From Leucoraja erinacea (lineage: Eukaryota): a DNA stretch of 61,945 nucleotides. This document shows positions 47,281 through 50,200 of this stretch, piece by piece. The stretch's first letter is position 1, and each line of letters starts with the position of its first letter. The notes beneath the pieces are model-generated. The model did no database searches and was not told the origin of the DNA. It worked only from the letters and a program-made list of their open reading frames with translations. Location of the stretch: the NCBI RefSeq assembly GCF_028641065.1, contig NC_073410.1:11658056-11720000 (forward strand), in the 5' to 3' direction. The translations under genes and the position numbers were made by a program.

Positions 47281-50200
47281 AATTTGACAATTTCTGAATC
47301 TGCAGAATTTTGCTTGCCATCCATTCTACAATTTCAGTTTTCAGTCCAGAGCACCTTGGAAGTTAAGATCAACCAAGTGAATTTGACAGGAGCTTCATGA
47401 AACAATTGTAGTTGAACCATCTAAGCAGAAATGTCTGGAGTCTGAATACAAAAGGTGTTAAGGGCGAGGTTATGGAATTCATTGTGGAGATAGGACTTTG
47501 ACAGTTGAAGACTTGACTGCCAATGACAGAGGAATATCAAGGGACCAGAATGAAGGAGATGCAGGGACAGAGAATTATACAGATGGAGTGCATTACAGAA
47601 TTTAATTTAGTTGAGAGATGTGGCATAGCAACAGGCCATTCTGCCTTGTATGGGCTAGTATTCACTGGAATTCAGAAGGATGAGAGGGTATATTATAGAA
47701 GCATATAAAATTCTTAAAGGATTGGACAGGCTAGAAGCAGGAAAAATGTTCCCGATGTTGAGGGAGTCCAGAATGTGGGGTCACAGTTTAAGAATAAGGG
47801 GTCGGCCATTTTGGACTGAGATGAGGAAAAACCTTTTCACCCAGAGAGTTGTGGATCTGGAATTCTCTGCCACAGAAGGCAGTGGAGGTCGATTCACTGG
47901 ATGTTTTCAAGAGAGAGTTTGATTTAGCTCCTAGGGCTGAAGGAATCAAGAGATATGGGAAAAAAAAGCAGGAATGGGATAGTGATTTTGAATGATCAGC
48001 CATTCCTGTTTCCCTGCTGTACCTAACAATAATCAAAAGACACAGGAACGATGCAAGTTAAGGCACAGTTGGCCTGAATTACACCATTTGTGCCTGTGGA
48101 CCTGATAACTGGCTCCATAATACATAAGAGGTGGATATAACGTCTAGCTGGCACAGGATATTATTAAAAAAAAACACATCCAGTGGAAAGGCTTCTACAG
48201 CAAGCAATGAGTAAATTTGGCAGCTCTTTGGACTGCTGAAATGGGAAAACATATTGAAGACTTGGCAGAATCCAACAGTCGCACAAATCCTGCATGGCTA
48301 TTAGGTTGTAATTAGGAATCTCTCCCACGCCAGCAGTACAACGTGGAGAATATCACCAAACAGAGAAAGATCATGACGCAAGAATTCTTCTTCTTTACAT
48401 TAATATCAATAAAGCTTCTTAAAAACATATTTCTTTAGCCTTATAAATAGTGGTGTGGAATACAAAAGCAGGAAAGTTGCAATGAAACAGTGTTAATCAT
48501 TGTTTAAGAAGGAACTGCAGATGCTGGAGAATCGAAGGTAGACAAAAAAGCTGGAGAAACTCAGCGGGTGCAGCAGCATCTATGGAGCGAAGGAAATAGG
48601 CAACATGTCTGAAGAAGGGTTTCGGCCCGAAACGTTGCCTATTTCCTTCGCTCCATAGATGCTGCTGCACCCGCTGAGTTTCTCCAGCTTTTTTGTGTAC
48701 CAGTGTTAATCATTGGTTTATGCATCTTCTGGAGCAGTGCATCCAAACTTAGGGATCACACATTCAGCAAGAAAGTCAAGGATCTGGAAAGGAATCTGTG
48801 GAGATTAATGATGGACGTCAAGTATACCCGACCCGCTGCGTTACCGAATTCCTCCTGCACTTGTGTATTTTATTTTAAACCAGCATCTGCAGTTCTTTAT
48901 GTCTCGACTTCAATTATGTTTTGGAACTGGAGCTGCAGAGAATGATGGGGTGAATTTAACCAAAATGGTCAAAACAATAAGAGCTTTGATGTTTCCAAGG
49001 GCAAGCTCATGGGGCGGGCTCAGTGGCGCAGCGGTAGAGTTGCCGCCGTAACGTTTTGTCACCACACAACCTCTTGTGTGGTTTCCGGCTCAGAATTACA
49101 ACTCATGTGGATGGAGTAGAGAGACACAAAGTGCTGGAGTAACTCAGCGGGGCAGGACAGGCAGCATCTCTGGAGGAAAGAAACGGGTGACCTTTATAGG
49201 TCGGAACCCTTCTTCAGACTGAAAGTAAAGTGGAGGGAACTAGGGGGTAGGAAAAGACCAGAAGAAATCAGGTCCAGCAACAGATGATCAAGGAAGGGTG
49301 GAGCCCACAATGGCCCGTTGTTGGCTGGGGAAGAGGTGATCACGAAGGGATATAGGAATGCGAAAAGTGGAACTAGTAGGATGACTAGGGTGGAGGGGCG
49401 GGGGGGGAGGAAAGGAATGCAGGGGTTACTTGAAATTGGAGAAATCTGTATTCATACCACTGGGTTGTAAGCTGCCCAAGAGATGTATAGTACAGTAGAA
49501 TATGGTAGAGGCAAGTGAACTCTCTGTAGGGTCCTTCAGGAACTGGATTAGGCTGCACCAATTGCCTGCAATCCTCCAAACCTGCTACCCTGCATTGTTG
49601 CTCTGCATTGCTGCACTCCTGCCTTGTCTTATCTTTTATTCCTTTAATTTCCAGGAACTGCAAGTAGAAAGAAAGCTAAAAACTGCTTGGCGCTACCAGG
49701 CAAGTGCAGACCTTCTGTAAGCATGAGTGACCTAGAGGCTGTTCATTATCTCAGTTTCTTCCGACTCGACAGCCTGCCTCACCTCAACACCTTACACTCC
49801 ACGCATTAGTGCTGAGCCGTCACATTTAAAACCCATTGACTGCTGTTGCTTAACAAACATACAAGTTATTCTGAATCATTAAAAGATGATGAGCAGAGGA
49901 GGCTGAGTGATCCCATCGCTGGGAATGACACACTCAAGCAGGCTGGATTGAAATGCCAGTTCATATGACCGGCCCAGACCCAGATGTGGCAATGGAACTG
50001 GCAACCCTTGGAGCCAGGGGCTACTGACAGCCAAGCAGAAGATTTGTATCTTTGCAACTTGGGGCTTGTTGCAGGAGCTTGCAAGATTGCCAGGAGATAC
50101 ACGATAGCACCAGCTGGTCCATTAGTACAGGCCACCATTGTTGCCCAAAGCAACATGTTTGCACCTGATGCTGTTTCACTGAAGCAAAGTAATAGCCTGT

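What the first reader, a model, noticed from the sequence alone, without database searches (positions are those of the whole stretch)
48609..48636. Minimal hammerhead-ribozyme-like core repeated through the introns on both strands
Seen: the motif CUGAAGA-A-GGGU-N4-(A/G)CCC-GAAA-CG-U(C/U). It is intact at 20847 and 48609 (+) and at 10768-10795, 36738-36765 and 55918-55945 (-). Degenerate copies lie at about 3918, 4224, 4404, 7120, 18078, 44438, 57860 and 59084. The stem II loop varies (CUCG, UUCG, UUUG, CUGG) while the GGGU/(A/G)CCC pairing is kept. Established: CUGANGA, stem II, GAAA and UH form the hammerhead catalytic core, and Penelope-like elements carry minimal type I hammerheads whose helix III is reduced to a short palindrome (here ACGU) completed by dimerisation. 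Inference: this is a very high-copy elasmobranch hammerhead family. Sense copies are transcribed within this pre-mRNA and might pair in cis or trans and cleave. Stem I is only about 2-3 bp in these copies, so activity is uncertain.
Basis: partly seen in the sequence, partly recalled or inferred. Interest (0 to 1): 0.75.

Follow-up and report, generated by a model that had tools for sequence, protein, structure and literature searches.

The report
Penelope retrotransposon hammerhead remnants in skate
The repeated motif is the minimal hammerhead-ribozyme sequence at the end of a Penelope-like retrotransposon, whose short broken copies fill this skate gene region about once per 1.2 kb; the copies are decaying and are predicted not to cut the host RNA, so this is a known kind of element in a host group where it was little described.

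Summary
In detail: five cores are fully intact, exactly the five named, and 24 motif hits are found against 0.10 expected by chance. The motif is not free-standing. It is the 5' part of a ~95-135-bp repeat with 50 copies in the window. Four copies run upstream into the C-terminal codons of a Penelope-like (PLE) GIY-YIG ORF. Twelve head-to-head pairs, a one-sided ~35-bp tail and 9-16-bp target duplications are PLE hallmarks. The finding itself is one such pair with a 15-bp duplication. The core fits the published PLE minimal hammerhead consensus. The host is a skate FRMPD2/PTPN20-like gene on +. Cleavage of the host pre-mRNA is unlikely. Stem I is 2 bp, G12 decays like a neutral CpG (7/34 vs 8/34), and no covariation is seen. 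The finding's copy folds into a ~65-bp hairpin that buries the cut site (predicted 12.6 kcal/mol to open), and RNA reads show no end pile-up. One unexplained feature: 20 of 26 copies that reach the core's 5' edge stop within 5 bases, at an initiator-like TCAGT. New member of a known kind; interest 0.25.

The parts
48609..48636 (+). Minimal type I hammerhead core (C3 at 48609; predicted cut after U17 at 48636): CUGAAGA, extra A, stem II GGGU/GCCC with UUCG loop, GAAA, palindromic CG, UU; stem I 2 bp (GU at 48607-8 with GC at 48637-8)
   Evidence: consensus in PMC4209133 supplement Fig S3
48607..48701 (+). Right arm of the insertion: 5'-truncated PLE 3' end (positions -1 to +93, C3 = +1), no tail
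48501..48609 (-). Left, inverted arm (positions about +21 to +129) carrying the ~35-bp tail; 70 of 73 aligned bases identical to the right arm; pairs with it in a + strand transcript
48488..48502 (.). Left copy of a 15-bp target-site duplication (edges overlap the arm by 2 bases)
48701..48715 (.). Right copy of the 15-bp target-site duplication
20838..20976 (+). Solo sense copy with intact core (C3 20847), tail and a 12-bp target duplication (20826 and 20975)
10768..10795 (-). Intact core, antisense to the host gene, left arm of a rearranged head-to-head pair
36738..36765 (-). Intact core, antisense, solo copy with a 9-bp target duplication
55918..55945 (-). Intact core, antisense, in a head-to-head pair; its junction happens to give a local 5-bp stem I, but the long hairpin is predicted to win
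58783..59213 (+). Longest clear copy: broken C-terminal 41 codons of a PLE GIY-YIG ORF (58783-58905), pyrimidine-rich 3' UTR, core at 59085 (U4>C), tail
49122..49488 (-). Copy with the last 20 codons of the PLE ORF (49488-49429), 3' UTR and a decayed core
11176..11794 (-). Copy with a frameshifted PLE ORF C-terminus (11794-11577), 3' UTR and a decayed core
11..365 (-). Copy with PLE ORF C-terminal codons (365-294), 3' UTR and a partly deleted core
44281..44517 (+). Copy with 3' UTR homologous (75%) to that of the 11176-11794 copy
26617..26799 (-). Copy with 3' UTR homologous (77%) to that of the 49122-49488 copy
4564..52882 (+). Host gene span mapped so far: ten FRMPD2/PTPN20-like exons (4564, 6748, 8365, 10308, 21913, 27736, 33473, 39611, 51371, 52697); the finding lies in the intron between 39823 and 51371

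Best explanation
The motif is the minimal hammerhead of the terminal repeat (pLTR) of a Penelope-like retrotransposon, likely of the Neptune type, and the 50 copies in the window are 5'-truncated, often head-to-head inverted 3' ends of that element that are decaying and are predicted not to cleave the host pre-mRNA. Inferred mechanism, by analogy with the anole PLE PAc: the element's GIY-YIG endonuclease nicks the target with a 9-16-nt stagger. Its reverse transcriptase then starts at one of two internal sites about 65 and 100 nt downstream of the hammerhead cut site (3' ends near +90 and +130), which gives the optional ~35-bp tail. Priming at both target strands, with one start site each, gives inverted pairs with a tail on one arm. 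Most cDNAs stop by the 5' edge of the hammerhead. The hammerhead, if active at all, would work in the master element's tandem transcript as a dimer helped by the element's protein; once inserted, a copy is under no selection for catalysis.
For: Shown: (1) ORF link. The 44-aa remnant upstream of 59085 hits 32 proteins at E<=0.001. Of the 13 scanned, P0011 and P0013 carry GIY-YIG (weak Pfam E 0.002 and 0.008, below cut-off). P0011 aligns at 40% over 170 aa (E 2e-26) to the C-terminus of the intact 961-aa RT+GIY-YIG ORF in L002, which begins at a hammerhead with the same stem II. tblastn finds this C-terminus on the same strand, about 180-330 nt upstream of the cores at 59085, 49217, 11267 and 97; two more copies share their UTRs. 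(2) Architecture. 12 head-to-head pairs; 3' ends are bimodal, with 13 of 44 at +86..+95 and 18 of 44 at +122..+132. With a cut-off of +117 the tail is on exactly one arm in 11 of 12 pairs and on both in none (read). Target duplications of 14-18 bp (at most one mismatch) flank 5 of 12 pairs, and exact ones of 9-14 bp flank 4 of 21 solo copies; exact matches of 10 or more occur in 0.8% of random pairs. Inverted pLTRs, a one-sided 30-40-bp tail and TSDs are described for PLEs (PMC8557442, PMC3846280 passages). (3) The core matches the published consensus CUGANGAH-G..C-GAAAN-palindrome-NUH. (4) Neutral decay: G12 G>A in 7 of 34 vs loop G 8 of 34, Fisher p = 1; core 9.0% departures vs 3.3% and 3.9% in two downstream blocks; no covariation, with 203 of 500 shuffles as high; no strand bias in the gene, 15 of 35 sense, p = 0.5. 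(5) Folding: cut site paired with probability ~1.0 at 48609 in context, 12.6 kcal/mol to free the core. (6) No pile-up of read starts or ends in two RNA runs (table 6). From papers: single min-HHRs did not cleave and dimers cleaved poorly (PMC4209133); the PAc hammerhead cut only with its protein and was not needed for insertion in vitro (PMC11167929).
Against: No reverse-transcriptase remnant or full ORF of this family lies in the window: tblastn with the L002 ORF gave nothing below E 0.7, and a direct comparison of the remnant with L002 was weak (E 0.005, 14 aa). The link therefore runs through P0011. The Neptune-type Cys linker is seen only in P0011 and L002. The best database hits are chimeric gene models. 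Neutral decay of old copies says nothing about the master element or a rare domesticated copy. The folding model ignores Mg2+, tertiary contacts and protein, and it also fails to make the hammerhead dimer the best fold for relatives with 4-5-bp stem I, so it discriminates poorly. The read test needs a fifth of local depth, used fragmented libraries dominated by paralogues, and the unique flanks of this intron had zero RNA depth, so this locus was not tested as RNA.
Confidence: 0.86

Rival explanations
1. One reading: intact sense copies dimerise in cis or trans (possibly helped by PLE protein in germ cells) and cut host pre-mRNAs, so the repeat acts as a genome-wide source of intron cleavage.
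For: Two sense copies keep every core base. The repeat is abundant in RNA: 33,874 of 12.9 million reads of a poly(A) run and 27,580 of 17.6 million of a single-cell run lay on a 1-kb stretch at 85% likeness, so partners are plentiful. PAc's hammerhead cuts when its protein is present (PMC11167929). Dimeric min-HHRs show low but real cleavage (PMC4209133).
Against: A dimer would rest on 2+4+2 bp; the forced dimer scores -2 to -7 kcal/mol vs -20 to -38 for the best alternative cofold in 7 copies. The cut site is buried at 48609. There is neutral G12 decay, no depletion of sense copies and no read-end pile-up.
Confidence: 0.06
2. The short copies are a non-autonomous, SINE-like family with its own ~100-135-nt RNA that starts at TCAGT and is mobilised in trans by the PLE protein, rather than truncation products of full-length PLE RNA.
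For: 20 of the 26 copies that reach position 0 stop within -4..0. One subfamily (the GUU^G type, e.g. 9103/9104, 20843, 43855, 48607) is young, with arms 95-98% identical and clean TSDs, and no copy of it in the window extends upstream. Non-autonomous pLTR derivatives are proposed in bioRxiv 10.64898/2026.07.22.740005.
Against: 18 of 44 copies have 5' ends spread from +2 to +56, as truncation predicts. Six copies continue seamlessly into PLE UTR or ORF. No tandem arrays were found. This rival differs from the best explanation only in the template RNA.
Confidence: 0.25
3. The hammerhead is vestigial even in the skate master elements: stem I shrank to 2 bp and the sequence is kept only as a protein-binding or promoter region.
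For: Related PLE hammerheads with the same GGG..CCC stem II in L004, L007 and L008 have 4-5-bp stems I of different sequence (L007 and L008 lie behind PLE ORF ends); L001 has 3 bp with the same AGU 5' arm; skate copies have 2 bp with an A-C mismatch next. Downstream blocks are as well kept as the core. A purine-pyrimidine alternative stem outcompetes stem II in most short folds.
Against: All core bases are unchanged between the window's subfamilies, and D. virilis Penelope, an active element, also has a 2-bp helix I (PMC4209133). Too few subfamilies are in the window to test this.
Confidence: 0.35

Closest known systems
Minimal type I hammerheads (min-HHR) of metazoan Penelope-like elements (Cervera & de la Pena 2014, PMC4209133)
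   Same: CUGANGA, one extra base before stem II, G10.1-C11.1, GAAA, palindromic C15.2-G16.2 with no loop 3, UH; located 3' of a PLE ORF; thousands of solo copies; pairs on opposite strands 100-700 bp apart.
   Different: Stem I is 2 bp (most listed examples have 3-5; D. virilis and Culex have 2) and stem II is 4 bp with a tetraloop. No cartilaginous fish appears in the searched supplement text (shark, skate, Leucoraja, Callorhinchus, Squalus: 0 hits in file 2; file 1 not searchable). Density here is one copy per 1.2 kb.
Anole Poseidon PAc (Frangieh et al. 2024, PMC11167929)
   Same: Hammerhead at the pLTR, two 3' ends defining an optional tail some tens of bases downstream of the cut site, no RNA reads ending at the cut.
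   Different: PAc is Poseidon clade and its ORF starts in stem II. The nearest proteins here carry a Cys linker typical of Neptune/Nematis. No skate protein has been tested.
EN+ PLEs with inverted pLTRs (Neptune, Penelope/Poseidon; PMC8557442, PMC3846280)
   Same: Head-to-head inverted 5'-truncated copies, one-sided 30-40-bp tail, TSDs of about 8-15 bp, palindrome at the inverted junction (18074-18081).
   Different: Here nearly all insertions are reduced to 100-250 bp with no ORF, and 5' ends pile up at the hammerhead's 5' edge, which I did not see described in the passages read.
Non-LTR retrozymes (PMC7229834; bioRxiv 10.64898/2026.07.22.740005)
   Same: Type I hammerhead, PLE ancestry, reported from one chondrichthyan genome in the preprint.
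   Different: Retrozymes are head-to-tail tandems of 2 or more units and the active ones carry canonical ribozymes. No tandem of this repeat is in the window.
Ultraconserved intronic hammerheads of amniotes (HH9/HH10; recalled, cited in PMC7229834)
   Same: Intronic position, sense strand for two copies.
   Different: Those are few-copy, conserved, canonical ribozymes. These are high-copy, decaying, minimal, and Rfam finds no match.

Membership tests
PLE minimal type I hammerhead | Catalytic boxes CUGANGA, GAAA and UH in type I order | tested here: met
   five copies fully intact
PLE minimal type I hammerhead | One unpaired base between A9 and G10.1; G10.1-C11.1 pair | tested here: met
   A at that position in 29 of 32; G-C 15, G-U 6, unpaired 4 of 25
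PLE minimal type I hammerhead | Palindromic N15.2-N16.2, no helix III loop | tested here: met
   C-G is the majority; 8 of 14 complete frames keep it
PLE minimal type I hammerhead | Short helix I (2-6 bp) | tested here: met
   2 bp, the lowest published length
PLE minimal type I hammerhead | Located in the pLTR downstream of a PLE ORF | tested here: met
   four copies with GIY-YIG ORF end upstream on the same strand
PLE minimal type I hammerhead | Compensatory changes in stems within the family | tested here: inconclusive
   none among 23 window copies plus L001/L002 beyond shuffles; few subfamilies; stem I differs compensatorily only in distant relatives L004, L007, L008
PLE minimal type I hammerhead | Self-cleavage as dimer or with protein | not testable with these tools
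   no read-end pile-up, a weak test
EN+ Penelope-like element | C-terminal GIY-YIG endonuclease | tested here: met
   C-terminal 20-75 codons only, via P0011/P0013 and L002
EN+ Penelope-like element | Telomerase-like RT in the same ORF | tested here: inconclusive
   no RT remnant in the window; present in the relative L002
EN+ Penelope-like element | Direct or inverted pLTRs with an optional 30-40-bp tail | tested here: met
   12 inverted pairs, tail on one arm in 11
Neptune clade | CX2-5CxxC linker between RT and EN; RT phylogeny | tested here: inconclusive
   linker present in nearest homologues P0011 and L002, not preserved in the window; no tree built
Non-LTR retrozyme | Head-to-tail tandem of 2 or more hammerhead units | tested here: not met
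   no such array
Canonical or ultraconserved intronic hammerhead | 6-bp helix I with loop 1-loop 2 contacts; conservation above flanks | tested here: not met
   2-bp stem I, no Rfam hit, neutral decay

The most novel reading that the evidence does not exclude
The skate repeat is a mass record of PLE 'strong-stop' DNA. The element's transcript starts at an initiator (TCAGT) two bases before the hammerhead. The reverse transcriptase primes internally ~95 or ~130 nt from that 5' end, at both strands of a break, and runs off the end, so most insertions are 100-250-bp head-to-head pairs with a tail on one arm. Support: 20 of 26 copies reaching the core's 5' edge stop at -4..0. The PLE-bearing contig L001 has CCAAT and TATA 45 and 31 bases before the A of the same TCAGT-CUGA junction. 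UCAGU stands within 15 nt upstream of CUGA in 5 of the 56 rows of Fig S3 of PMC4209133 (counted by eye). Not excluded alternatives: the same bases are a polypyrimidine+CAG splice acceptor, and TCAG-T-CTGA is a palindrome that could favour annealing there.
Probability: 0.3. Interest if true: 0.55.

Novelty: new member of a known kind. Interest (0 to 1): 0.25.

Why it matters
As it stands it extends a known association, hammerheads in Penelope-like elements, to skates, and it identifies a repeat that covers about 8% of this window. It also shows that scans for intronic ribozymes in cartilaginous fish will be swamped by dead copies. The better use of the family is as a very large natural dataset on how PLEs insert: two start sites, inverted pairs, and a sharp 5' stop at the hammerhead. 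How PLEs form head-to-head junctions and what their hammerhead is for are open questions in the papers read. If intact copies did cut host introns it would matter much more, but the evidence here is against it.

Tried and rejected
No whole genome is held for this window, so copy number and subfamilies could not be measured genome-wide. Rfam gave no hit. A word-index protein search with the 51-aa remnant found nothing; the full HMMER scan did. Names for the 32 hits could not be looked up, so their hosts are unknown. tblastn of the L002 ORF on the window found no RT piece. Viral contigs held no motif match and no PLE relative. Of 7 prokaryote-bin matches, L007 and L008 are PLE ends, probably eukaryotic carry-over; L005, L006 and L009 have a 0-1-bp stem I and look like chance matches. 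No RNA holder was listed for window:58300-60300; RNA runs were added by species label. A pile-up of 5' ends at the predicted cut (+29) was looked for and not found: 3 of 44 copies start at +26..+33. The 4:1 to 8:1 strand asymmetry in the single-cell run could not be oriented and may reflect internal priming. Summed contig depth (2.7e7 over the core vs 17-39 on unique flanks in X1) is not a copy number by the tool's own warning. I considered that the inverted arm could rescue stem I; it costs a predicted 12.6 kcal/mol at 48609. Different subfamilies on the two arms of a pair (7112/7119) would show two templates per event, but that pair has no clear TSD, so I do not claim it. Retrozyme and ultraconserved intronic hammerhead were rejected by membership tests. 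Earlier scan notes held nothing. Paper search returned only unrelated shark papers.
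Full report
Observation. The sequence at 48609-48636 (+) is as described. The 24-base pattern has 24 matches at up to three mismatches, against 0.10 expected from shuffles. Of 14 places with a complete CUGANGA-N12-GAAA-NN-UH frame, five have all core bases, a 4-bp stem II, a palindromic N15.2/N16.2 and a 2-bp stem I: 20847+, 48609+, 10795-, 36765- and 55945-. 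Rfam finds nothing at gathering thresholds. Positions below count C3 of the hammerhead as +1, so the predicted cut is after +28.

The motif is part of a longer repeat. Every hit continues into the same ~65-105 downstream bases. A profile from 24 core copies finds 50 copies or fragments, 22 on + and 28 on -, covering 4,805 bases or 7.8% of the window. For end statistics I kept the 44 of 50 with an alignment score of 75 or more. For column counts I kept the 34 that also start by +12 and end at +55 or later. Reads and contigs confirm a very abundant family: summed contig depth over the core is about a million-fold above unique flanks in two DNA runs of two organisms. The tool warns that this is not a copy number.

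Host. A PDZ exon at 33485-33655 is 96% identical to Amblyraja radiata FRMPD2 and 86-89% to shark and ray PTPN20/PTPN13-like proteins. Ten exons map on + from 4564 to 52882. The window is therefore from a skate (inferred), and the finding lies in the intron between 39823 and 51371, in sense.

It is the 3' end of a Penelope-like element. Six copies continue upstream into a pyrimidine-rich tract (pyrimidine fraction 0.72-0.82, against 0.25-0.62 for the other 20 that reach position 0). Four of the six reach a broken ORF end, and the other two share UTR sequence with them. The 44-codon remnant at 58774-58905, read with X at its stop, hits 32 proteins. These are mostly chimeric gene models, but P0011 and P0013 keep the upstream GIY-YIG motif (weak Pfam scores). 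P0011 aligns at 40% over 170 residues to the end of a 961-aa RT + GIY-YIG ORF on contig L002. L002 was found only through the hammerhead pattern, which sits at the start of that ORF. P0011 and L002 have a Cys-rich linker before the endonuclease, the mark of the Neptune and Nematis clades (PMC8557442 passages); the window itself preserves no RT. The insertion architecture agrees. There are 12 head-to-head pairs. 3' ends cluster at +86..+95 (13 of 44) and +122..+132 (18 of 44). With a cut-off of +117 the tail is on exactly one arm in 11 of 12 pairs and on neither in one; if each arm had an even chance, 11 or more of 12 has p about 0.003 (hand arithmetic). Five of 12 pairs have 14-18-bp target duplications with at most one mismatch, and 4 of 21 solos have exact ones of 9-14 bp; exact matches of 10 or more occur in 0.8% of random pairs. 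The finding is one such insertion: a 15-bp duplication at 48488 and 48701 encloses an inverted, tailed arm (48501-48609) and a direct arm (48607-48701) with 70 of 73 bases identical. Inverted 5'-truncated pLTRs, a 30-40-bp tail at one end and TSDs are the described PLE structure (PMC8557442, PMC3846280).

The core is the published PLE minimal hammerhead. Cervera and de la Pena give the consensus CUGANGAH-G..C-GAAAN-palindrome-NU-H. They report thousands of solo copies per genome and pairs on opposite strands, no cleavage of single motifs and low cleavage of dimers (PMC4209133). The skate core fits, with the shortest published stem I (2 bp, as in D. virilis). Relatives fetched by pattern have 3-5-bp stems I of differing sequence (L001, L004, L007, L008).

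Are the genomic copies working ribozymes? The evidence is against. G12, an essential base (established knowledge), is lost by CpG decay in 7 of 34 copies, against 8 of 34 for the CpG in loop II (p = 1). The 11 core positions depart from the majority in 9.0% of cells, against 3.3%, 3.9% and 8.0% in three downstream blocks and 13.4% over +29..+88, which includes subfamily differences. Stems I and II show one two-sided change in 150 cells and no excess over shuffled columns. Sense copies are not depleted in the gene (15 of 35, p = 0.5; low power). In a + transcript the finding folds into a hairpin of about 65 bp that pairs the GUU triplet; freeing the core costs a predicted 12.6 kcal/mol. The only other intact sense copy is 27.8 kb away. 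Forced hammerhead dimers score -2 to -7 kcal/mol against -20 to -38 for the best cofold. This test is weak, since relatives with longer stems also fail to reach their best fold as hammerheads; 55945- is a local exception, with a chance 5-bp stem I. Two RNA runs carry the repeat in 0.16-0.26% of reads, with no place where many molecules begin or end. The unique flanks had no RNA depth, so the reads come from paralogues and this locus was not observed as RNA. In the anole element PAc the hammerhead cut only with its protein, was dispensable for insertion in vitro, and left no read ends at the cut (PMC11167929).

Mechanism. Shown: ORF linkage, two 3' ends, inverted pairs, TSDs, decay. Inferred from PAc: nicking of both target strands and internal priming at two sites, which explains the tail and, if each strand uses one site, the one-sided tail in pairs. 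Untested: any catalysis by the skate hammerhead.

One unexplained feature. Of 26 copies that reach position 0, 20 stop within -4..0 and six run on for 85 bases or more; 18 others start between +2 and +56, only three near the cut. The stop coincides with TCAGT. This fits a Pol II initiator (motif recalled), and L001 has CCAAT and TATA 45 and 31 bases before the same A; L001's ORF lies on the other strand, and the skate long copies have no TATA there. It also fits a splice acceptor, as in D. virilis, where the intron ends at helix I, and TCAG-T-CTGA is a palindrome that forms the junction at 18074-18081. The initiator reading would make the short copies run-off products from the 5' pLTR; I give it 0.3.

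Literature seen. PMC4209133: parts 1-2 of 4 of the text, supplement file 2 parts 1-2 of 3 and a term search (file 1 not searchable). bioRxiv 10.64898/2026.07.22.740005: parts 1-3 of 5; its supplements are closed and may list this family, since it reports retrozymes and PLEs in one chondrichthyan. PMC11167929: parts 1-2 of 4. PMC8557442, PMC3846280, PMC2377424, PMC6431247, PMC7229834: passages. PMC12602865: term search, no hits. Eight searches showed no paper describing a skate PLE hammerhead family; Repbase, Dfam and subscription journals were not searchable.

Verdict. A real, correctly seen motif that belongs to a known class: a new member of the PLE minimal hammerheads, present as dead retrotransposon ends. 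Interest 0.25.

Noticed in passing
window, 20 copies, e.g. 3916+, 34204-, 36770-, 48607+, 57333-: 5' ends pile up at -4..0, at TCAGT just before CUGA; candidates are an initiator, a splice acceptor or a palindrome.
   Followed up: partly
window 20838-20853: Inside its 12-bp target duplication the copy begins with a short direct repeat of its first seven bases, as if the reverse transcriptase re-engaged at the template's 5' end.
   Followed up: no
repeat positions about +74..+82 and +110..+118: Both 3' ends lie 10-20 bases downstream of a CCAGCAU motif, and both motifs can pair with the well-kept AGAUGCUG at +48..+55; possible recognition element for the element's protein.
   Followed up: no
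window 17809-17895 (-): A piece of the PLE linker/endonuclease region (59% to P0011, E 4e-5) lies about 100 bp beyond the 3' end of the 18080 copy; separate fragment or rearranged insertion.
   Followed up: no
window 49125-49156: In the poly(A) run 731 reads show a 32-base step back within the repeat, against 1-2 contigs in DNA runs; probably a partial tandem duplication at another, well-expressed locus.
   Followed up: no
L002:17-2902: Intact 961-aa PLE ORF (RT, Cys linker, GIY-YIG) directly behind a minimal hammerhead, in a metagenome contig.
   Followed up: partly
L001:549-620 (-): CCAAT, TATA at -31 and TCAGT directly before a hammerhead, pointing away from a decayed PLE ORF on the other strand.
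   Followed up: partly
L007, L008: PLE ORF ends followed by minimal hammerheads with 4-bp stem I inside bacterial metagenome-assembled genomes; likely eukaryotic carry-over. L004, from the same bin as L007, has a 5-bp stem I.
   Followed up: partly
P0001 and other hits: Public gene models end in this PLE's C-terminal codons (e.g. a GPCR model), so the repeat is being mis-annotated as exons or is occasionally exonised.
   Followed up: no
window 4564-52882: The Amblyraja FRMPD2 model stops at the 33473 exon, while shark PTPN20/PTPN13-like models continue through exons at 39611, 51371 and 52697, suggesting FRMPD2 and PTPN20 form one long gene here.
   Followed up: partly
window 9312-9385 (+): ARAGORN calls a tRNA-Cys-like sequence with an ACA anticodon; more likely the head of a tRNA-derived SINE, a second abundant repeat in the window.
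   Followed up: no
window 12580-13129, 15568-15933, 41386-42366: Several CR1/L2-type LINE 3' fragments (recalled resemblance); 212 N bases in the window, a long run of them near 46970-47180.
   Followed up: no
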